A stretch of 25,477 nucleotides of DNA from a virus, in UHGV virus genome UHGV-2038699; one strand, 5' to 3'. Position numbers and translations under genes: made by a program. How positions within the stretch are numbered: the first letter of the stretch is position 1; every line of letters starts with the position of its first letter. Of the stretch, positions 1-21,676 are shown piece after piece. The notes below the pieces were generated by a model. The model did not search any database. It was not told the origin of the DNA and saw nothing but the letters and a program-made list of their open reading frames with translations.

Positions 1-549
1 TCAGCTAGCTGGAAACTTTTTATACAGAGTTGAGAGCCCTACTCCATACGTTTTTGATACGCTTTGTCGTGATTCACCGGTTGCCATCCGCTCCCCCATT
101 TCCCGCCATTGCTCATCCGTGAACTTAGGCCTGCGACCACCAACTCGCCCTTTTGCCCTGGCTACGGCCAGCCCTGCTAAGGTACGTTCGCTATTAAGAT
201 CAGATTCATATTGTGCTGCGGAAAGGATGTTACGAAAGTTATAGCGGCCGCTGGCTGTTTTGAGATCCACGCCATCGGTAATACTGCGGAAGTTGATACC
301 CTTTTCCTGTAACTGCTGGAACATCAACAGCGCATGCAGAACGTTGCGGCCTATCCTGTCCAGCTTCCAGACCACCAGTTCATCCCCCGGCTGCATAATG
401 GCGATCAGCCGTTTTAGAACCGGCCGATTCGATTTCCTCCCGCTGGCATGCTCTTCAAAAATTTTCTCACAACCCGCTGACTTGAGCGCCGTTAGTTGCA
501 ATTCAGTGTCCTGGTGGTTTGTTGATACTCGGGCATAACCGTAAATCAT
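1..549 (-). CDS. pin: Serine-recombinase DNA invertase (Pin/Gin/Hin/Cin family)
   Basis: Translation from the ATG at 549 begins MIYGYARVSTNHQD with the catalytic Ser context (YARVST) of small serine invertases; C-terminal HTH. AGGAG RBS upstream. The ORF track extends to 594 via a GTG, but the ATG at 549 fits the family N-terminus. Confidence 0.85.
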   Translation of the reverse strand: MIYGYARVSTNHQDTELQLTALKSAGCEKIFEEHASGRKSNRPVLKRLIAIMQPGDELVVWKLDRIGRNVLHALLMFQQLQEKGINFRSITDGVDLKTASGRYNFRNILSAAQYESDLNSERTLAGLAVARAKGRVGGRRPKFTDEQWREMGERMATGESRQSVSKTYGVGLSTLYKKFPAS

Positions 550-553
550 GGGA

Positions 554-580
554 TTTCTCCTGTTATGAAAACAGGAGAAA
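554..580. promoter_or_regulatory. Perfect 10-bp palindrome (TTTCTCCTGT / ACAGGAGAAA) overlapping the invertase RBS
   Basis: Arms at 554-563 and 571-580 are exact reverse complements around a 7-nt spacer; the arm on the mRNA contains the AGGAG Shine-Dalgarno. Function (operator or RBS-sequestering hairpin) is inferred. Confidence 0.4.
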
Positions 581-601: not shown

Positions 602-1090
602 TTGATGGTTATAAAAAAGGTTGGTTTGGGAGAAACGATAAATAAAGCCTCCGGAGCTATGCAGAAATCGGCTAATGGATCTGATATTTCTGATGTATCA
701 GCCTTCCGAAATGCGCTCCAGTTAGGGACCGCCGCAACACGAGATGTTGGAGCAGATAATGCCTCGAAGTTACTGGATTTAGACAGCTTCAGGTCAATGA
801 TGTCAGGGAATGGCTACATCTACATTCCATGCATTGCGACGACAGGAAACCCGGTGAAACTTATGTTGCAGTGGGGAACGGTGGCAACACAAAAGGGAGC
901 TGATGCTGGATATGCCTTACCATTTGCTTTTCCCTATGCAGGCTTATTTGCGACCGGAAACCGTGGAACATCTGGCTACAATGCCGCGATGAATGTGCGT
1001 ATTGCCAGCAGAACGCATATCAGTATTCAGAACTGGTCGCCATCCGGAGAGGGCACCGAAGATTGTTGTTTTATCGCGCTGGGGTATTAA
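602..1090 (+). CDS. Alternative tail-fibre C-terminal (variable) cassette, promoterless in this orientation
   Basis: The ORF opens on TTG directly at the crossover site and encodes VGLGE... in the same frame as LGLGE in the expressed fibre. No independent RBS or ATG start. Expected to be fused to the constant N-terminal part after inversion. Confidence 0.6.
   Translation: MMVIKKVGLGETINKASGAMQKSANGSDISDVSAFRNALQLGTAATRDVGADNASKLLDLDSFRSMMSGNGYIYIPCIATTGNPVKLMLQWGTVATQKGADAGYALPFAFPYAGLFATGNRGTSGYNAAMNVRIASRTHISIQNWSPSGEGTEDCCFIALGY
609..634. repeat. Invertase crossover site, left (hix/gix-like 26-bp site)
   Basis: TTATAAAAAAGG-TT-GGTTTGGGAGAA. The half-site GGTTTGGGAGAA and the central TT are identical to the reverse complement of the site at 2518-2543; overall resembles hix/gix sites as I recall them. 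Confidence 0.7.
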
Positions 1091-1092
1091 GA

Positions 1093-1509
1093 ATGAATAA
1101 ATTTTATAAAGGCTCTTTCTATCCGAAAGCACTAAAAGAGGTATATATCAGCGCCGGTTCATGGCCTGAAAATGGCGTTGATGTTGATGATGAAACAATG
1201 GCAATTTACACAGGCGTAGCACCAGAAGGTAAAACGCTGGGGGCTGACAAAGATGGTAATCCTGCGTGGATTGATATCCCGCCACTCTCCGCTGAACAAC
1301 AGATTATTCAGGCTGAACAGAAAAGAACGGTATTGCGTTCTATGGCTGATAAGGAAATAGTCTGGAGACAGGATGCTTTTGATGCGGAAATTGCGACGGC
1401 AGAAGAAACCGCCGCGTTGTCTGAATGGAAAAAATACCGGGTCTTGCTGATGCGCGTTGATACATCAAATCCCGTCTGGCCTACGCCTCCGGGGGAGCAG
1501 GCCAATTGA
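1093..1509 (+). CDS. Alternative tail fibre assembly chaperone (Tfa'), silent orientation
   Basis: ATG at 1093 follows the upstream stop (1088-1090) by 2 nt; C-terminus ...NPVWPTPPGEQAN parallels the expressed chaperone end (...INWPAPPEA). Convergent, overlapping 3' ends (1481-1509). Confidence 0.6.
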   Translation: MNKFYKGSFYPKALKEVYISAGSWPENGVDVDDETMAIYTGVAPEGKTLGADKDGNPAWIDIPPLSAEQQIIQAEQKRTVLRSMADKEIVWRQDAFDAEIATAEETAALSEWKKYRVLLMRVDTSNPVWPTPPGEQAN

Positions 1510-2074
1510 TATCCGGCGCGGTGCTGGTATCCGTTGCCGTCACTGCGTCAATGTAATCAAGCACGGCGTTAAGCCGGGTTGTTTCTGCCTGCGTCAGCTT
1601 CCGCCCGGCCTGTAATTTCAGCTGAATCAGGCTGATGGAAGCCATTGCAGCATCAATCAGTGACTGGCGCTGTGCTTCTGCCGCTTCTACTGCGGCACCG
1701 TGTTGTGCCTCAGTATCTGTCACCCATTTCTCACCATCCCATTTATCATATGGCGTTAACGGTGAAAGCGTGACATAACCGTTTTTGATGGCACCGATAT
1801 AATCCACTGTAACAGCAGCACCATTTTCGATTGAGTAAACAGTCTCATTGCGATGGTCTTCTTCATGGCTCCATCCCTTACCTGTAAATACTGCCACTCT
1901 TCCCGGAATGTTTTCGCCAGGGTCAATACCAGTGGAACAGGCGGGCATACTTACGCCAGTATTAATATATTCATCAGACCAGCCCGTATACTCAGATGTT
2001 TCAGCATCATAATAAAAACAACGCATATCGCCCGGCACTGTAGCCAGCCCATTTTCATCAAAAACAGGTTTCAT
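1481..2074 (-). CDS. Tail fibre assembly chaperone (Tfa / Mu U-like)
   Basis: Start ATG overlaps the fibre stop (TAATG); GAGGG RBS; sits directly downstream of the fibre gene; sequence and position typical of tail fibre assembly proteins. Confidence 0.7.
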   Translation of the reverse strand: MKPVFDENGLATVPGDMRCFYYDAETSEYTGWSDEYINTGVSMPACSTGIDPGENIPGRVAVFTGKGWSHEEDHRNETVYSIENGAAVTVDYIGAIKNGYVTLSPLTPYDKWDGEKWVTDTEAQHGAAVEAAEAQRQSLIDAAMASISLIQLKLQAGRKLTQAETTRLNAVLDYIDAVTATDTSTAPDINWPAPPEA

Positions 2075-2868
2075 TATTTAGCCCTCACCAGAAAGTTAAA
2101 TGCAATATTTCGCGGTCTGACAGCAACAAAATTCACACCATCACCCACAGAGTTACTGGTGAAATTAAATCGTGAAAATCCTGGCTGATTTCCGGCGATG
2201 CCATCATGAAAGTTAATTGCGTGTCCCGCACCTCCGCCTATATTCCCGGCAAACTGAGAAAAGTTTGTAGCTTCCTGCCAGCTTAATAATTCGCGACCAC
2301 CATCGGCACCTCGCCCGTCATCCCAGATACGAATGAAATCACCGCGGGCTTCAGGTAATACCAGTGAAGGAAACACTTTCGCCAGCACAGGGTAATCAGA
2401 GGCAGAAAATTTCGCCCCGTTGAACTTCAAAAACACCATACTGGACCAGCTGTCGATTACAGTATTTGGCATTGCAGCGGACGGCCAGAAGAACGGAACG
2501 CCAATAGCTGGAGCACCTTCTCCCAAACCAAGGTTTTCGAGAGCCGTTTTCACCGTGCCATCCGATTTGATATCGCCAAACGGATTCTTGCGGCTCAGGT
2601 ATTCAACAGCAAACCCCGATCCCAGCAATTCAACAAAACCGGGCAGATCACCATTATCAAGCACATCCCGTTGCGTTTTATCACTTACAAACTGGGCCAG
2701 AGCTGCAGCAATAAAGCTGGCCTGTCGAATAACCTTATTGACTTGCGCACTGGATGCTTTCCCTGCTGTAAATCCGGATATAAGCGCAGGCAACGCTTCC
2801 CATTCCTCCTGCGACATAACATTGGCATTCCGATCAGTTGCAAACGCTTTAAAGTCATTTTTCGCCAT
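2074..2868 (-). CDS. Side tail fibre protein: constant N-terminal part (2544-2868) plus variable C-terminal part inside the invertible segment
   Basis: C-terminus (...[13 protein letters not shown]...[18 protein letters not shown]...[12 protein letters not shown]) resembles lambda Stf / Mu S-type fibre C-termini. The crossover site lies in-frame at codons for ENLGLGE. Start at 2868 (TGATG overlap with upstream stop); an alternative ATG at 2886 gives 6 more residues. Confidence 0.7.
2518..2543. repeat. Invertase crossover site, right (inside the tail fibre gene)
   Basis: TTCTCCCAAACC-AA-GGTTTTCGAGAG. The first 14 nt are a perfect inverted match to 621-634; encodes LGLGE in the fibre reading frame. 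Confidence 0.7.
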
Positions 2869-3548
2869 CAGAGTAATACTCCCCATGCCCCTACATCAAA
2901 ACCACTGATGTATTCGTTATCAATATCAAACCCAAAGAATTTAGAACCCTCGGAAGGTGTTTCAACCGAAGGCGTTTCAACATCACCGGCCCATACGCCA
3001 GCTGATTTAACGGTGAGATAGCCCTGTTTGATAGCGGCGATCAGTTCGAGAGACACATCAGAAATATCAGTTTCAGGGAAAACCCAGACCGAAATCGTCA
3101 TGTCCTGGTTGTCGACGATCTGCATCCTCAGGCCTGAGCCTGCGGTAGCAGCGTCAAGGATGGGAGGCAGAGAGTCGTTCCGACCGTCCCAGTTGTTGAT
3201 AGCGATTTTCGCTTTCAGAATGATGCGGTACGTCTCATCGCTTAGAGTCGTATAGCCAGAATCAGGATCATATGGCCCTTGCCAGATGCCCTGGTCATAC
3301 CCAAGCCCGTCAGTGTCCCAGCTGAAATAAACTCCGCTAATTGGCTGGCTGACTATGCGACTGCGTCCGATCCACAGACCGAGGATGTCGAGCTGTACAC
3401 CGACAGCAGTATCGATATCGAAGGCTGTTATAAGCCCTGACATAGTGCTGGACACATCAATCAGCGGGCGGGTGCTCAGATCTATATGGTCAAAAAAGAG
3501 TGGCTTGGTAGCGTGGTAGTTAGTGATCAGTTCGGTGTATTTGCTCAT
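2868..3548 (-). CDS. Baseplate/tail protein (P2 gpI / Mu gp48 / e14 YmfQ-like position)
   Basis: 226 aa; ATGA start/stop overlap with the J-like gene upstream; lies between the baseplate J-like gene and the tail fibre as in Mu/e14-type tails. Family assigned mainly by synteny. Confidence 0.5.
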
Positions 3549-5326: not shown

Positions 5327-6067
5327 TTAATTAGGCGCGGTAGTATTCCCGCTGCCATTCTGCACACCGCCATGGGTATGCTGGATGAGGCTCTTTCCTC
5401 CAGCCTTCACATCGTTAGTCACCGTCACCGGCCCAAGCATCGTCGCAGTACCGCCACTTTCGCCCATTCCCTGAGACAGATTGCCATTAATCGTTACGTT
5501 GCCGTTCAGCGTGATAGTCGGGGATGTGATTGTCGTTCCACCTTCAGCCGTAGCCGTGAGCTGGCCCGGTGTTTGAACGGTGATGTTATGTCCTGCGGCA
5601 ACCTCTACGAACGCCGCACCATCATCGGTTCGCAGCTGCGCGGCGCTGGTACTGATACCGCTGATTTTCTGTGCTTGCGACTGCGGGCCAACGATGGCGA
5701 ACGCATCAGATAAGTCATGCTGTCGCGGATCGACGGTCTCCTGAACGCCGCCGCTCTGCCACCAGAAATCGATGCAACGGTCGGCAAAGATCAGCAGGCA
5801 CTCGTCGCCTTCTTTTACCGGAAAGGTCAGCGTGCAACCGCCGCCGCGCGGGAAGATAACCGGCACATCCACCAGCGGTTTTAATTCGGTGGAGCCATCG
5901 CCAACAATACCGCGAAGCGCTACCTCTACTGTGCAGGTAACAGTGTCAGGATCGAACGACTGAATGATGCCGGGCATCGCTACGCGCATCTGGGTAGACA
6001 CCGAATCGGCAATGGCCTGCGCGGTCTGCTGCTCACCCCCGATCTGTGATTGAGTTGGAATTGGCAT
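5327..6067 (-). CDS. Baseplate spike / assembly protein V (gp5-like OB-fold N-terminus, beta-helical C-terminus)
   Basis: N-terminal region (GIIQSFDPDTVTCTVEVAL...VPVIFPRGGGCTLTFPVKEGDECLLIF) matches the phage baseplate V family; C-terminal repetitive TITSPTITLNGNVTINGN and an HTHGG motif typical of spike tips. Confidence 0.75.
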   Translation of the reverse strand: MPIPTQSQIGGEQQTAQAIADSVSTQMRVAMPGIIQSFDPDTVTCTVEVALRGIVGDGSTELKPLVDVPVIFPRGGGCTLTFPVKEGDECLLIFADRCIDFWWQSGGVQETVDPRQHDLSDAFAIVGPQSQAQKISGISTSAAQLRTDDGAAFVEVAAGHNITVQTPGQLTATAEGGTTITSPTITLNGNVTINGNLSQGMGESGGTATMLGPVTVTNDVKAGGKSLIQHTHGGVQNGSGNTTAPN

Positions 6068-6078
6068 AAAACCCCCAT

Positions 6079-6101
6079 AAAAAAACCAGCCGAAGCTGGT
6101 T
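6079..6101 (-). terminator. Intrinsic terminator-like hairpin (CCAGC-cgaa-GCTGG followed by U7 on the minus-strand transcript) immediately upstream of the V RBS
   Basis: Stem 6086-6090 / 6095-6099, then a run of 7 A on the plus strand (6079-6085), i.e. U7 on the minus transcript; the V RBS (GGGGG) starts 2 nt after the U-tract. Confidence 0.55.
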
Positions 6102-6289
6102 TGGTATCAATTATCTCTTAGTAACTAAGCTACATCAGTGTGAAGTAAGGCTTTTCCGCTGCAATGGCACACATTCACAAGGTGTATTAGGATATGTTTG
6201 CAACAAGTAAGCATTGAAAATCAATTTCAGCCATGAAGCCGCCATAGAGTGGACCTGCACCATCGCATTATTGACTACAGGAGTAACAA

Positions 6290-6580
6290 ATGGGATTTAG
6301 ATTTCGTAAAAGAATCCGGATTGCGCCCGGACTCGCGATCAACATTAGTAAAAGCGGAGTAAGCACTTCAATTGGTGGTAAAGGTTCCACCATTAACATC
6401 GGAAAAAAAGGCGTAAAGATGACAAATGGCCTTCCCGGCACGGGGCTGTCGCATACCACTAACCTTTACTCTCCCGGGAAATCGACAGAAAAAAAACAAC
6501 TTACTCATAAGCAAAAAATAATTAGAAACATCCTGTTCGTAATTATTGTGTTTATTATAATTAAAGCTCAATATTTTTGA
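6290..6580 (+). CDS. DUF4236-like small membrane protein (N-terminal MGFRFRKRIRIAPGLAINISKSGVSTSIGGKG motif, C-terminal TM helix)
   Basis: ATG at 6290 with CAGGAG RBS 6 nt upstream; opposite strand to all structural genes; its own terminator follows; AT-rich relative to flanking genes; C-terminal hydrophobic segment ILFVIIVFIIII. Confidence 0.65.
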   Translation: MGFRFRKRIRIAPGLAINISKSGVSTSIGGKGSTINIGKKGVKMTNGLPGTGLSHTTNLYSPGKSTEKKQLTHKQKIIRNILFVIIVFIIIKAQYF

Positions 6581-6585
6581 CGCAT

Positions 6586-6617
6586 GCCCGCCTATCTGGC
6601 GGGCTATTTTACTTTTC
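6586..6617 (+). terminator. Intrinsic terminator of the DUF4236-like gene
   Basis: GCCCGCC-tatct-GGCGGGC stem-loop followed by TATTTTACTTTTC, 6 nt after the stop codon. Confidence 0.65.
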
Positions 6618-6954
6618 GGCAGTCGTATGTTGCATACTGACGCGGCGAATCCATGCTGGCTTGCAGCCACTGTGCGTTGAGAATGGCTTTGCCGTTGCGC
6701 TTGATGTACTCAAGCCCAACCCAGCGGCCGGGTTGATTAGTTGCAACCGTCCATTCCATCTTGAGATTTTGATAATCTTCCTTGGCTTTCAGAAAGGTCA
6801 TTTTCTGGTTTTCTGGCTTTACACCATTAATATGCATAAAACCATCATTACCTGCGGTGAGGCGATATGGCCCGCATTGGGTATCAGCCATTGCAGTTGA
6901 AGCTCCGACCAACGAAAGAACGGCTCCGCAGATAACATTCCTAATTTTTGTCAT
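6604..6954 (-). CDS. Secreted/periplasmic protein of unknown function, 116 aa, cleavable signal peptide, two Cys
   Basis: Starting at the ATG at 6954: MTKIRNVICGAVLSLVGASTAMA|DTQCGP (n-region K/R, hydrophobic core, AMA cleavage motif). Convergent with the DUF4236-like gene. The ORF track extends it to 7014, but that would overlap the hub gene. Confidence 0.6.
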   Translation of the reverse strand: MTKIRNVICGAVLSLVGASTAMADTQCGPYRLTAGNDGFMHINGVKPENQKMTFLKAKEDYQNLKMEWTVATNQPGRWVGLEYIKRNGKAILNAQWLQASMDSPRQYATYDCRKVK

Positions 6955-6955
6955 A

Positions 6956-8020
6956 TCACACCTGTACTTTTTGGAGCGTCGACTGACTATATAATTCACG
7001 ACTGCCACGCGCAAAGCACATCAAATCCATGTACCACGCCTGACCTCTGGTGTCGCCAGTATAGTCGATAGCTTTGACGATATAAACGCCATCCGTCGCA
7101 ATGCTGGCAGCCTGTGACGTCGTACCGGTCAGCACACGGTTGCCATTCTCTTCAGTTTCGGTGATACGCCCGGGCGACTGTGCGATTTCGCTATTACCGA
7201 GCGACGCGCGGTACACCGAAGCCTGATCGAGCTGGATAAGACCATTAATGCGGATGTTTGGGTTTATCAGGCACCGCACGTTTACGCCGCCGCCCATCGT
7301 CTGTTGCGGCATACCAATCAGGCCAGTATTGGCATTCAACACAATGGCTTCGTGAATATATTTATCCTCCGGCACCATCTGGACCTGACCATCCACCAGC
7401 TGCCATGTCGCTTTGCACTGCGCTGCAATATTATCCATCACGTTACGAGTGGATGAGTAAATCGCGCGGCCACGAGGAAACACGGTATCAGGAAAATCGC
7501 CGGTAATGCCCTGTGTCACGCCGAACACGTTGAAATCCTGCATCGTCGCCCGGTGCAGATCCGCAACGGTATAGCCAGCGGCAAGCGTAGTGATGGTAGT
7601 CGCGTAGAGGAACGCTTCATGATCTCCAATAGCCTGAATCAACACCCAGGAATCGGTAATGTTGTCCTTCCCGGTTACGGTAAAGCGAATATCACCGTCA
7701 AAAATCAGGCCGTAGTTCTGACCGTTCACCTGCCCTATCTGGTCTGGTGAAATCTCTCGGGCGACGCCGACCTGGCTCGCATCAACATCCGGCGCTATAC
7801 CGTCATACCCGGCAATGATGCGAATTTTGGCAAACTCCTGCCCCAGTATCTTGTTCGTGGTATCGGTCGAAAGGTTGTAAATTTTCACGTTCGCCACGCG
7901 CGGCCAGCGTGTGTCTGCCCACTCGATCTGGAACGTGACCTTAAAGTCAGACAGGGAAACGCCCTGCCCGTTCTGGTCCAACAGTTGCAGCTCAAAATGG
8001 CGCATCCAGTTAAGAGACAT
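6956..8020 (-). CDS. Baseplate hub / tail protein (P2 gpD / Mu gp44-like position)
   Basis: 354 aa, located between the tape-measure-proximal genes and spike V; assignment is by size and synteny only. Confidence 0.45.
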   Translation of the reverse strand: MSLNWMRHFELQLLDQNGQGVSLSDFKVTFQIEWADTRWPRVANVKIYNLSTDTTNKILGQEFAKIRIIAGYDGIAPDVDASQVGVAREISPDQIGQVNGQNYGLIFDGDIRFTVTGKDNITDSWVLIQAIGDHEAFLYATTITTLAAGYTVADLHRATMQDFNVFGVTQGITGDFPDTVFPRGRAIYSSTRNVMDNIAAQCKATWQLVDGQVQMVPEDKYIHEAIVLNANTGLIGMPQQTMGGGVNVRCLINPNIRINGLIQLDQASVYRASLGNSEIAQSPGRITETEENGNRVLTGTTSQAASIATDGVYIVKAIDYTGDTRGQAWYMDLMCFARGSRELYSQSTLQKVQV

Positions 8021-20054: not shown

Positions 20055-21676
20055 CAGGCCTGTCTCCCTAGCAGCTCCCAGATGTTCAGGGCTGAATTCA
20101 TTGGCGCGTAGCTGATCATCACCGAGTCGGCGAGGTTCGGCGACTTGGTGCCATCAGGCTGTTTATCAACAACGATTTTCCCCACGCCATTAATGGAGTA
20201 GGTCGGCTGCGACAGCTCAATGATGAGTTTGTCTTTGCTCGCCATGGCGCTGCTGATTGAGATGATTTCGTCCGGGTTGTAGGCCATGCCCTCAACCACG
20301 GCGCGATAGGTGTTCTGGAAAAGCTTGCGTAGCCACCACCAGCTTTGGGCCTTGGCGTTGGCGAAGAAGTCCTTGTTCAGGCGTGCGGCCTGTCCGTTGT
20401 CCCCGCGCACCGCTTCATCGTCCGGATCAAATACCGCGCCGCTACCACGAAACGGTGTGGCGAGTATTGACGGTCGTCGCGCAGCGTTACGCAGTTCGTT
20501 GATGGCGCGCGCATCGCCGCGAACGCCAGCACCCAGACCGTCCTCGTCGAAGCGAAACTCTTCGAGGTTGTCCTGTTCGCAAAAGCCGAAGACCTTCTCA
20601 ACAGACTGGTAAATGTCGCTGCCAACGCCGGACCATTCACGCACGTTCTCCAGAAGGAAGCCGTGACGGGTCGAAAAGGCATTTTTGTCCCGGCCTTCGT
20701 CGGCGACGTCCATCGCGCCCAGTCGCTTGCCCGTTGGCTGAATACCAAGTTTGATATGCGCGTCGACGGCAGCCTGTACCCAGTCGGACGGGATCAGGAC
20801 GCCTTCCGCAGATGCGCTGTAGTTCAGGTCAAGTTCCTGCGCCACCACCACCGGATTGTCGATTTTCTCGCACTCCCTGCGATACCACTCTTCATCCTTG
20901 CGCGGGTCATCTCGCCAGTGGAACGTGAATACTGGTATTTTTCCGCCGTGGCGCTTCTGCGCGAACGGGTTCGCCATGCCATTAACCGAGCTCAGGTCAA
21001 TACGGCAACGGGTGGTTTGCGACAGCGCCGCATCAATCAACAGAGGACGCTGGAGGAATGCAGCTTCATCCACCAGGTAGAGCGTGGTACGGTCACCACG
21101 TCCGATATTGTCGCCAGCCTCGCCTTTGATAACCGCGCCAGTATCTGGAAACTCAACGCGCATATACGGCGCATGCTTCTTCTCGTCCCACGAACCACGA
21201 AACTCTACAGGTAGTGTTTCCACGAACTTGCGCGCCTTCCAGAACAATGCTTTCGGGTCACCGGTGCTGTCGACGTATTCCTCTTTACGGGAGCCGAAAC
21301 CGATAACCATTTCTTTGTTGAAGAGACAAAGCGAGCAGGCCAGTCCGATCGCGGTCCAACTAAGTCCCATTTCACGGGATTTTTCGGTAATACCATTCTC
21401 CCGATTGCTCCAGCGTTCCATAATCCAGTGGATCCACTCCTCCTGCTTAGGGAAGAGTAAAAACGGAATGGTCACCGGCAGGCCATAATCAATATTACGC
21501 GGGTCCGTTGTCATGCCCCAGTCGATGATGAACTGAGCCGGATTGGTTCGGTAAAACTGTTTTAGTGCAGGCAATATTTCAGGATTCTGGCGAATGCGCT
21601 GTAGGCGTTCCATCCGCCATTCAAAAACCATCTGGTAATCAGGATGTTTAAAATCGAAGGGAAATGGTAACGGCAT
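20054..21676 (-). CDS. Terminase large subunit
   Basis: 540 aa downstream of the small terminase; Walker B-like LYLVDEAAF; size and position. Confidence 0.8.

What the first reader, a model, noticed from the sequence alone, without database searches (positions are those of the whole stretch)
2518..2543. Crossover site lies in-frame inside the fibre gene and encodes the same pentapeptide in both arms
In the expressed arm the site encodes ...[10 protein letters not shown]|GAP...; the silent cassette begins VGLGE|TINKAS... in the same frame relative to the site. Inversion would therefore make a seamless fusion of the constant ~108-residue N-terminus (2544-2868) to an unrelated C-terminal domain (...QNWSPSGEGTEDCCFIALGY). 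The two variable domains look non-homologous, suggesting a real receptor change rather than a subtle variant.
Basis: seen in the sequence. Interest (0 to 1): 0.5.

Follow-up and report, generated by a model that had tools for sequence, protein, structure and literature searches.

The report
Invertible tail-fibre host-range switch (Pin type)
This is an ordinary, well-known kind of phage DNA switch: an invertase flips a 1.9-kb segment so that the prophage's tail-fibre gene swaps one receptor-binding tip, and its helper protein, for an unrelated one.

Summary
Window 2518-2543 is a 26-bp invertase crossover site (TTCTCCCAAACC AA GGTTTTCGAGAG) inside the tail-fibre gene (2074-2868, minus strand). 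It is 26/26 identical to the fibre-internal site of the E. coli e14 P segment. Its partner lies at 609-634, beside a Gin-like serine invertase gene (1-549).

In-silico inversion of 621-2531 gives no frameshift or stop. The 264-aa fibre becomes a 268-aa fibre with the same first 117 residues. One correction: the silent arm encodes VGLGE, not LGLGE. The crossover falls on the TT of that codon, so the product keeps LGLGE.

The two variable ends show no detectable sequence similarity. One is collar/gp37-like and the other gp53-like, and each has its own assembly-chaperone gene.

Natural proteins two residues from the predicted fusion exist. One E. coli assembly (L027) carries the same four-gene segment at 96.8% identity in the opposite orientation, with breakpoints inside the sites.

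This is the Mu G / P1 C / e14 P design, already known, so interest is low. One caveat remains. The invertase is a divergent allele (52-55% identical to Gin and PinE) lacking four of six residues reported as conserved in Fis-dependent invertases. Its own activity is not shown.

The parts
1..549 (-). Serine DNA invertase gene (182 aa). ATG at 547-549; the stop codon forms the first three bases of the window.
   Evidence: Pfam Resolvase (E 5.6e-39) plus HTH_7. Aligns end to end with Gin structures 3UJ3 and 4M6F (E 2.5e-56), with the catalytic Ser9 in YARVSTNHQ. 55% identical to PinE and 52% to Gin. DNA is 99.7% identical to the phage HK225 invertase and 93% to phi80 pinL.
553..577 (-). Hairpin in the invertase mRNA leader (12-bp stem in the RNA fold). 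Its 3' arm contains the Shine-Dalgarno AGGAGA.
   Evidence: RNA fold z = -4.5 to -5.45, with 0 of 200 shuffles folding as well. The equivalent repeat is annotated IR3 upstream of pinL in the phi80 record. A regulatory role is inferred only.
609..634 (.). Invertase-proximal crossover site, TTATAAAAAAGG TT GGTTTGGGAGAA. The core TT is at 621-622.
   Evidence: The identical site sits next to the same invertase allele in E. coli AR_0118 (L001) and Citrobacter phage Omnitron (L002).
621..2531 (.). Invertible segment, 1911 bp from core dinucleotide to core dinucleotide.
   Evidence: In-silico inversion. The natural opposite isomer is in L027: the native window aligns as two HSPs, with 1922 bp reversed, and the junctions fall inside the 26-bp sites.
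635..1090 (+). Silent variable cassette V2 (151 aa, gp53-like C-terminal domain). An upstream ORF start exists at 602/605.
   Evidence: Pfam Gp53-like_C, E 1.3e-8. Its start aligns to Mu S' in PDB 8JU3. It is found fused and expressed in L003, L004, L006-L009, L025, L027 and L028.
1093..1509 (+). tfa2, the tail-fibre assembly chaperone that belongs to V2 (138 aa).
   Evidence: Pfam Caudo_TAP, E 2.8e-31. Its C-terminal part is 43% identical to Mu U. It starts 2 nt after the V2 stop.
1481..2074 (-). tfa1, the tail-fibre assembly chaperone that belongs to V1 (197 aa). Its 3' end overlaps tfa2 by 29 nt.
   Evidence: Pfam Caudo_TAP, E 2.1e-27. 62% identical to e14 TfaE. Its ATG overlaps the fibre stop (TAATG).
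2074..2517 (-). Expressed variable cassette V1 (147 aa, collar/gp37-like) plus the stop codon.
   Evidence: Pfam Collar, E 0.008, below the curated cut-off. T4 gp37 tip 2XGF, E 0.011, including the C-terminal NIAFNxxVR motif. 40% identical to the variable part of e14 StfE. Found silent beside the same invertase allele in L018.
2518..2543 (.). Fibre-internal crossover site, TTCTCCCAAACC AA GGTTTTCGAGAG. The core is at 2530-2531. On the coding strand it encodes (A)LENLGLGE.
   Evidence: It is 26/26 identical to the site inside e14 stfP in E. coli K-12. The e14 P segment is shown experimentally to invert at TTGGTTTGGGAGAAGG repeats (PMC12529663; PMC4272514).
2544..2868 (-). Constant N-terminal part of the tail-fibre gene, presumably the baseplate-attachment end.
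   Evidence: Both isomers share a 117-aa prefix. The region is 96-99% identical in loci that carry different cassettes. The start ATG overlaps the stop of the upstream wedge gene (TGATG).
2868..3548 (-). Baseplate wedge gene (DUF2612 / Phage_Wedge1) immediately upstream. It shows that the fibre is the last gene of a complete myovirus tail module.
   Evidence: Pfam DUF2612, E 2.9e-46. The rest of the window encodes terminase, portal, capsid, sheath, tube, tape measure, hub, spike and baseplate J.

Best explanation
This is a Pin/Gin-type invertible tail-fibre segment (a 'shufflon-less' two-state host-range switch) at the end of the late operon of an E. coli-type myovirus prophage.

How it works:
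1. The serine invertase encoded at 1-549 binds the two inverted 26-bp sites, 609-634 and 2518-2543.
2. It cuts both at the central AA/TT dinucleotide and exchanges the strands, which inverts 621-2531.
3. The promoter-distal site lies in frame inside the fibre gene. Codons 1-112 and the upstream late promoter therefore stay fixed, while the C-terminal receptor-binding part and the chaperone gene behind it are exchanged.
4. Orientation A, as sequenced, gives a 264-aa fibre with a collar/gp37-like tip plus tfa1.
5. Orientation B gives a 268-aa fibre with a gp53-like tip plus tfa2.

Status of each step:
- Shown here: the sites, the frame, the two ORFs, the distinct domain families, the natural occurrence of the predicted fusion protein, and a natural opposite isomer of the segment.
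- Inferred from the family: cleavage at the core, expression of only the fused cassette, a change of receptor and host range, and activity of this particular invertase allele.
For: - **Repeat.** The exact 14-nt inverted repeat occurs twice in the window and 0 times in shuffles.
- **Site identity.** The fibre-internal site is 26/26 identical to the e14 stfP site. It is also related to Mu gix, TTCCTGTAAACCGAGGTTTTGGATAA, which encodes IQNLGLQE in Mu S.
- **In-silico products.** Inversion gives seamless 264-aa and 268-aa proteins.
- **Invertase.** It aligns full-length to Gin (E 2.5e-56) with the catalytic Ser9 present.
- **Chaperones.** Each cassette has its own Caudo_TAP gene.
- **Natural fusion proteins.** Natural 268-aa proteins are 97-99% identical to the predicted fusion. 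P0125 differs at 2 residues.
- **Natural opposite isomer.** In L027 the inverted window aligns as one 2285-bp HSP at 96.85%. The native window aligns only with 1922 bp reversed.
- **Half-sites travel with their flank.** The constant-side half CTCTCGAAAACC stays with the fibre N-terminus. The cassette-side halves GGTTTGGGAGAA (V1, V2) and CAATTGGGAGAA (V3) stay with their cassettes. This holds across L001, L007, L008 and the window, and places the exchange at the central dinucleotide.
- **Both cassettes occur in both states.** V1 is silent in L018 and V2 is expressed in at least nine loci.
- **Experimental precedent.** The e14 P segment inverts at the same repeat sequence, catalysed by PinE, PinQ and PinR (PMC12529663; PMC4272514).
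Against: - **No direct evidence for this genome.** No reads or sister assemblies of this exact prophage show both orientations.
- **Divergent invertase.** It is 52-55% identical to Gin and PinE. It differs at 4 of 6 positions that PMC3798978 reports as conserved in Fis-dependent invertases: Hin K51 -> A, Q151 -> E, R154 -> E, L155 -> R.
- **Enhancer not found.** The motif scan for a Fis-binding enhancer inside the gene was inconclusive.
- **Odd outer half-site.** The invertase-side half of the proximal site (CCTTTTTTATAA) departs from the GGTTTT... half-site pattern.
- **The natural opposite isomer uses another invertase.** L027 sits beside a pinE-type invertase, not this allele. A search for the flipped isomer of the AR_0118 segment next to this allele found none among complete E. 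coli genomes.
- **Receptor specificities are unknown.** Both structure predictions failed.
Confidence: 0.88

Rival explanations
1. The switch is a frozen relic. The architecture is that of an invertible segment, but in this prophage it no longer flips by itself. Either the divergent invertase allele is inactive or poorly activated, or the invertase-proximal site is too degenerate. The fibre would then effectively be fixed in orientation A unless another Pin acts in trans.
For: - The invertase lacks 4 of 6 residues reported as conserved for Fis/enhancer activation.
- No enhancer was identified.
- The outer half of site L is atypical.
- No opposite isomer was found next to this allele.
- A related prophage carries a truncated recombinase (L022), and others have no invertible segment at all (L021, L023).
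- A strong hairpin occludes the invertase Shine-Dalgarno sequence.
Against: - The invertase ORF is intact and has the catalytic serine.
- The allele is 99.6-99.8% conserved next to three different silent cassettes: the window, L001 and L018. That pattern fits ongoing use.
- Site R is identical to a site proven to invert in e14.
- Invertases of this family act in trans on each other's sites. PinE, PinQ and PinR all invert e14 P (PMC12529663).
Confidence: 0.1
2. The repeat is only a seam of homologous recombination. On this reading the conserved NLGLGE-coding motif is a hotspot where fibre modules are swapped by general recombination between prophages. The inverted copy near the invertase would be a leftover of such an event and not a functional crossover site.
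For: - Cassette boundaries across many genomes coincide with the site. Matches in E. coli genomes start at gene position 327, one base inside the 26-bp site.
- V1 occurs behind at least four different N-terminal constant regions, giving protein lengths of 241, 246, 249, 264 and 279 aa.
Against: - An intact serine invertase gene lies 60 bp from the site.
- The site has the family's 12-2-12 layout and is identical to the experimentally used e14 site.
- A clean natural inversion isomer has its breakpoints inside the sites.
- The two processes are not exclusive. Module shuffling at these sites is itself a described property of this family (own knowledge: Sandmeier, Iida and Arber, 1992).
Confidence: 0.02
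3. The invertase-proximal 'silent' ORF (602/605-1090, 161-162 aa, gp53-like) is expressed as a free protein that protects the lysogen by blocking adsorption of other phages. This is what was reported for StfE2 of e14 after P-segment inversion. The switch would then also serve host defence.
For: - The ORF has its own ATG at 605 and carries a Gp53-like_C domain.
- StfE2, the e14 protein reported to block T2 adsorption, is likewise the invertase-proximal chimera carrying a gp53-like domain (PMC12529663).
Against: - No promoter-like site or Shine-Dalgarno sequence precedes the ORF.
- V2 has no detectable similarity to the variable part of e14 StfP. The only BLASTP match of fibre B to StfP covers residues 92-129, around the junction.
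- The prophage here looks complete, so a phage host-range role is sufficient.
Confidence: 0.05

Closest known systems
e14 P segment with PinE (E. coli K-12: stfP-tfaP / tfaE-stfE, pinE)
   Same: - Same gene order: constant fibre part, cassette plus tfa, tfa plus cassette, invertase.
- The fibre-internal site is 26/26 identical, and the 14-nt repeat core is the same as the published e14 repeats.
- tfa1 is 62% identical to TfaE, and V1 is 40% identical to the StfE variable part.
- The convergent tfa genes overlap by 29 nt in both.
   Different: - e14 is a defective lambdoid remnant; here the switch ends a complete myovirus late operon.
- The segment is 1911 bp against 1797 bp.
- The invertase is only 55% identical to PinE.
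- The invertase-side half-site differs: CCTTTTTTATAA against CGTTTATGAAAA.
- V2 is not the e14 StfP tip.
Phage Mu G segment with Gin (S-U / U'-S')
   Same: - Same logic: a constant Sc part, an in-frame gix site encoding IQNLGLQE (here LENLGLGE), two variable tips each with its own chaperone, and the invertase gene just outside the segment.
- The start of V2 aligns to Mu S' in PDB 8JU3 (E 3e-5).
- The C-terminal part of tfa2 is 43% identical to Mu U.
   Different: - Mu has a longer constant part (about 169 aa), longer cassettes, a 3-kb segment and a GA core dinucleotide.
- Gin carries the conserved Fis-contact residues that this invertase lacks.
Prophage Sp1 remnant of E. coli O157:H7 Sakai (ECs_0280-ECs_0284: tail fibre, tfaE, yfdK, yfdL, pinE)
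   Same: The fibre A gene is 98% identical over its full length. tfa1 is 95% identical. It has the same fibre-internal site type and an adjacent invertase.
   Different: The silent cassette (yfdL/yfdK) and the invertase (pinE type) differ, and the Sakai copy sits in a decayed lambdoid prophage.
Phage P1 C segment with Cin, and the p15B Min multiple-inversion system (own knowledge, not tested here)
   Same: Same invertase family and the same principle of in-frame crossover sites in tail-fibre genes.
   Different: p15B has six crossover sites and many isomers. Only two sites are found in this window.
Salmonella Hin / hix flagellar switch (own knowledge plus PMC3798978)
   Same: Homologous serine invertase and 26-bp sites with a 2-bp core.
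   Different: Hin flips a promoter and lies inside its own segment. Here the flip recombines coding sequence, and the invertase gene lies outside the segment.

Membership tests
Invertible tail-fibre segment of the Mu G / P1 C / e14 P type | A small serine recombinase (Resolvase catalytic domain plus C-terminal HTH) is encoded next to the segment | tested here: met
   Pfam Resolvase plus HTH_7. Full-length alignment to Gin 3UJ3, E 2.5e-56, with Ser9 present.
Invertible tail-fibre segment of the Mu G / P1 C / e14 P type | Two 26-bp crossover sites in inverted orientation with the same central dinucleotide | tested here: met
   Sites at 609-634 and 2518-2543, with an AA/TT core and 14 nt identical. 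Site R is 26/26 identical to the e14 site.
Invertible tail-fibre segment of the Mu G / P1 C / e14 P type | One site lies in frame inside the fibre gene, so that inversion exchanges the C-terminal part behind a constant N-terminus | tested here: met
   In-silico inversion gives 264-aa and 268-aa ORFs. Natural proteins match the predicted fusion.
Invertible tail-fibre segment of the Mu G / P1 C / e14 P type | Each variable cassette is followed by its own tail-fibre assembly (Tfa/U-type) gene | tested here: met
   Both genes are Caudo_TAP, E 2e-27 and 3e-31, and only about 25% identical to each other.
Invertible tail-fibre segment of the Mu G / P1 C / e14 P type | Both orientations occur in nature | tested here: met
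   L027 carries the same segment inverted, with breakpoints in the sites. This was not shown for this exact prophage or this invertase allele.
Invertible tail-fibre segment of the Mu G / P1 C / e14 P type | The two orientations give different host range or receptor use | not testable with these tools
   The only support is the lack of similarity between V1 and V2. Adsorption or plating assays are needed.
Fis/enhancer-dependent DNA invertase subclass (Hin, Gin, Cin, Pin) | A recombinational enhancer with two Fis sites in the 5' part of the invertase gene | tested here: inconclusive
   A degenerate Fis-motif scan gave no strict matches in this gene, Mu gin or pinE, and loose matches without a consistent spacing.
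Fis/enhancer-dependent DNA invertase subclass (Hin, Gin, Cin, Pin) | Conserved enhancer/Fis-contact residues: Hin K47, K/R48, K/R51, Q151, R154, L155 (PMC3798978) | tested here: not met
   By gap-free alignment to Gin, the window has K46, R47, A50 and E150, E153, R154, so 4 of 6 differ. The helix-E start is also divergent: GRYNFRNILSAAQYE against GRFFFHVMGALAEME. The architecture is therefore filed under the family, but Fis dependence of this enzyme is not claimed.

The most novel reading that the evidence does not exclude
The invertase (the phi80 pinL / HK225 lineage) may be a distinct sub-lineage of tail-fibre invertases. It may have lost the canonical Fis/enhancer contacts. It may instead be controlled differently, for example by the strong Shine-Dalgarno-occluding leader hairpin at 553-577, while still using e14-type crossover sites.
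Probability: 0.15. Interest if true: 0.35.

Novelty: already known. Interest (0 to 1): 0.1.

Why it matters
It matters mainly for annotation. The 'silent' cassette ORFs and the fused fibre should be annotated as the two states of one gene. Databases currently call them 'phage tail protein', a pseudogene, or even 'integrase'. Assemblies of this region can represent either isomer.

Biologically, the switch lets a lysogen population release phage with two receptor specificities. This is a well-documented bet-hedging device. Nothing here changes that picture. The only open point is how the divergent invertase allele is activated.

Tried and rejected
- **Structure prediction.** AlphaFold2 models of fibre A (alignment A1, 20 sequences) and of the natural fibre-B homologue P0125 (A3, 14 sequences) reached mean pLDDT of only 34.8 and 34.3. 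They were unusable, so no fold search was run.
- **Fis-site scan** of the invertase gene: inconclusive.
- **NCBIfam** gave only sub-threshold recombinase matches for the invertase and nothing for the fibre or tfa proteins.
- **Flipped AR_0118-type segment** next to this invertase allele: none found in complete E. coli genomes.
- **Further crossover sites**, which would indicate a Min-like multiple-inversion system: none. The only other hit has 3 mismatches, at 21543, as expected by chance.
- **Review PMC4384473** is not held in the library.
- **Exact prophage.** No complete E. coli genome carries it. The best structural-module matches are 92-96% identical.

Full report
**1. What is in the sequence**

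The left 3.6 kb of the window holds, in order:
- a serine recombinase gene (1-549, minus strand);
- a promoterless ORF for a gp53-like domain (602/635-1090, plus strand);
- a Caudo_TAP gene (1093-1509, plus strand);
- a second, convergent Caudo_TAP gene (1481-2074, minus strand);
- a 264-aa fibre gene (2074-2868, minus strand), whose ATG overlaps the stop of a DUF2612 baseplate-wedge gene (2868-3548).

The rest of the window is a complete myovirus late module on the minus strand. It encodes terminase, portal, capsid, sheath, tube, tape measure with an SLT domain, Dit-like protein, Pam3-gp18-like plug, gp41-like hub, spike, sheath initiator and baseplate J. The fibre is therefore the last gene of a plausible functional tail operon.

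**2. The sites**

Window 2518-2543 is TTCTCCCAAACC AA GGTTTTCGAGAG. Window 609-634 is its inverted partner; the reverse complement reads TTCTCCCAAACC AA CCTTTTTTATAA. The shared 14-mer occurs exactly twice in the window and never in 100 shuffles. No further copies exist, so this is a two-state switch and not a multiple-inversion system.

The layout is two 12-bp half-sites around a 2-bp core, as in the Hin/Gin family. The fibre-internal site is 26/26 identical to the site inside stfP of the e14 element of E. coli K-12. It is clearly related to Mu gix, TTCCTGTAAACC GA GGTTTTGGATAA.

**3. Frame and in-silico inversion**

On the coding strand the site reads (G)CT CTC GAA AAC CTT GGT TTG GGA GAA = ALENLGLGE. 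The silent arm reads AAG GTT GGT TTG GGA GAA = KVGLGE. The arms therefore share GLGE and the last two bases of the preceding codon. The core dinucleotide is the TT of that codon, so exchange there leaves CTT intact.

Inverting 621-2531 yields a 268-aa ORF with the same first 117 residues, followed by TINKAS...CCFIALGY.

In both orientations the fused cassette is followed at once by its own chaperone gene. For V1/tfa1 the stop and start overlap (TAATG). For V2/tfa2 there is a 2-nt gap.

**4. Are the two tips unrelated?**

| Test | Result |
|---|---|
| BLASTP, V1 against V2 | best E 0.86 |
| hhalign of the two family alignments | only the constant N-terminus aligns; the match ends at LGLGE |
| V2, Pfam | Gp53-like_C, E 1.3e-8 |
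| V2 start against PDB | residues 110-148 of fibre B align to 167-205 of the Mu S/S' structure 8JU3 (IQNLGLQETVNQASGALQQNQNGADI; profile E 2.9e-5) |
| V1, Pfam | Collar, E 0.008, below threshold |
| V1 against PDB | T4 gp37 tip 2XGF, E 0.011, including the terminal NIAFNxxVR motif |
| V1 against e14 | 40% identical to the variable part of StfE |

The two tips therefore fall in different families at sequence level. Fold-level confirmation failed, because both AlphaFold2 models had pLDDT of about 34. A change of receptor is inferred, not shown.

**5. Evidence that the inversion really happens**

- *The predicted product exists.* A cluster of 268-aa E. coli and Salmonella proteins is 97-99% identical to the in-silico fusion. 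P0125 differs at 2 residues and has the identical constant part and junction.
- *The opposite isomer of the whole segment exists.* In E. coli assembly GCA_046601045.1 (L027), the in-silico inverted window aligns as one colinear 2285-bp HSP at 96.85%, running const-V2-tfa2-tfa1-V1-site. The native window aligns only as two HSPs with 1922 bp reversed, and the junctions lie inside the 26-bp sites.
- *Half-sites stay with their flanks across loci.* CTCTCGAAAACC always stays with the constant part. GGTTTGGGAGAA travels with V1 and V2. CAATTGGGAGAA travels with a third cassette, V3. The invertase-side halves stay with the invertase. This places the exchange at the central dinucleotide.
- *Each cassette is seen in both states.* V1 is expressed here, in O157 Sakai Sp1 and in L010-L017, and silent beside the same invertase allele in strain 21AR0133 (L018). 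V2 is silent here and in AR_0118, and expressed in at least nine loci.
- *The same repeat is proven experimentally in e14.* TTGGTTTGGGAGAAGG flanks the e14 P segment. Inversion there has been shown by whole-genome sequencing and PCR and is catalysed by PinE, PinQ and PinR (PMC12529663; PMC4272514).

**6. Mechanism and what remains inferred**

The enzyme aligns end to end with Gin (3UJ3, E 2.5e-56) and has the catalytic serine. The expected mechanism is that of the family. Dimers bind each site, a synaptic tetramer forms, both sites are cut at the 2-bp core, subunits rotate, and the ends are religated. That mechanism is established knowledge for Hin and Gin (PMC3798978) and was not tested here.

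The caveat is that this allele is divergent.
- It is 55% identical to PinE and 52% to Gin. Its closest relatives are the invertases of phages HK225 and phi80 (pinL).
- By gap-free alignment it has Ala where Hin has K51. It has Glu, Glu and Arg where Hin has Q151, R154 and L155. PMC3798978 reports these positions as conserved among Fis-dependent invertases.
- The start of helix E is also unusual.
- I could not identify an enhancer.
- I found no opposite isomer next to this allele.

Self-catalysed switching in this prophage is therefore likely but not shown. Trans-action by other Pin enzymes of the host is a realistic alternative.

**7. Context in related prophages**

Structural modules 92-96% identical to this one occur in at least 26 complete E. 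coli genomes. Their distal ends differ:
- a fixed fibre with no invertase (L021, L023);
- an invertible segment with a truncated recombinase (L022);
- other cassette pairs (L001, L007, L010).

V1 is found behind several different constant regions, giving proteins of 241-279 aa. The crossover site is thus also a seam for modular exchange between phages. This is a described property of the family.

**8. Verdict**

The feature is the classical Mu G / P1 C / e14 P type of invertible tail-fibre switch. Its crossover site is identical to that of e14, and its cassettes are already common in E. coli genomes. Novelty: already known. Interest: low.

Noticed in passing
window 553-577 (minus strand), between the invertase ATG (549) and site L (609): A strong hairpin (12-bp stem, UUUCUCCUGUUU-UCAUA-ACAGGAGAAA) sits in the invertase leader. 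Its 3' arm contains the Shine-Dalgarno sequence (z = -4.5 to -5.45, 0 of 200 shuffles fold as well). pinE-type leaders pair their SD more weakly, and Mu gin shows no clear hairpin. The phi80 record annotates the equivalent repeat as IR3. It may throttle invertase translation.
   Followed up: partly
window 1-549 (invertase protein residues 50, 104-115, 150-154): The invertase differs from Gin, PinE and Hin at residues reported as conserved for Fis/enhancer activation: K51A, Q151E, R154E and L155R in Hin numbering. The start of helix E also differs (GRYNFRNILSAAQYE against GRFFFHVMGALAEME). This allele is 99.6-99.8% conserved in E. coli AR_0118 and 21AR0133, beside yciI-tonB.
   Followed up: partly
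window 6068-6955: A cargo slot interrupts the baseplate genes, between the spike (5327-6067) and the gp41-like hub (6956-8020). It holds a DUF4236 ORF on the opposite strand (6290-6580) and a 115-136-aa ORF with a signal-peptide-like N-terminus (6604-7014, no Pfam hit). Related prophages carry other genes at this position, such as a YafO toxin in L017 and a DUF2335 protein in L003.
   Followed up: no
window 1481-1509: The two convergent tfa genes overlap by 29 nt. Both C-terminal WP(A/T)PP motifs are encoded on opposite strands of the same near-palindromic DNA (CCTCCGGGGGAG). e14 tfaP/tfaE have the same 29-nt overlap.
   Followed up: no
database entries for the V1 cassette and L018 4400-4858: Many V1-bearing fibre proteins (246-249 aa) are named 'integrase' in NCBI records. 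Silent cassettes are annotated as N-terminally truncated pseudogenes or as separate 'phage tail protein' ORFs of about 164 aa. These are systematic mis-annotations of invertible-segment states.
   Followed up: no
L001 (E. coli AR_0118) and L018 (21AR0133), next to yciI-tonB: The same invertase allele sits directly beside yciI-tonB in both strains, and in the phi80 record pinL lies next to attP. From my own knowledge, not tested here, this is the classical phi80 attachment region. The invertase end of these prophages may therefore share a phi80-type integration module, although the window's tail genes are of myovirus type.
   Followed up: no
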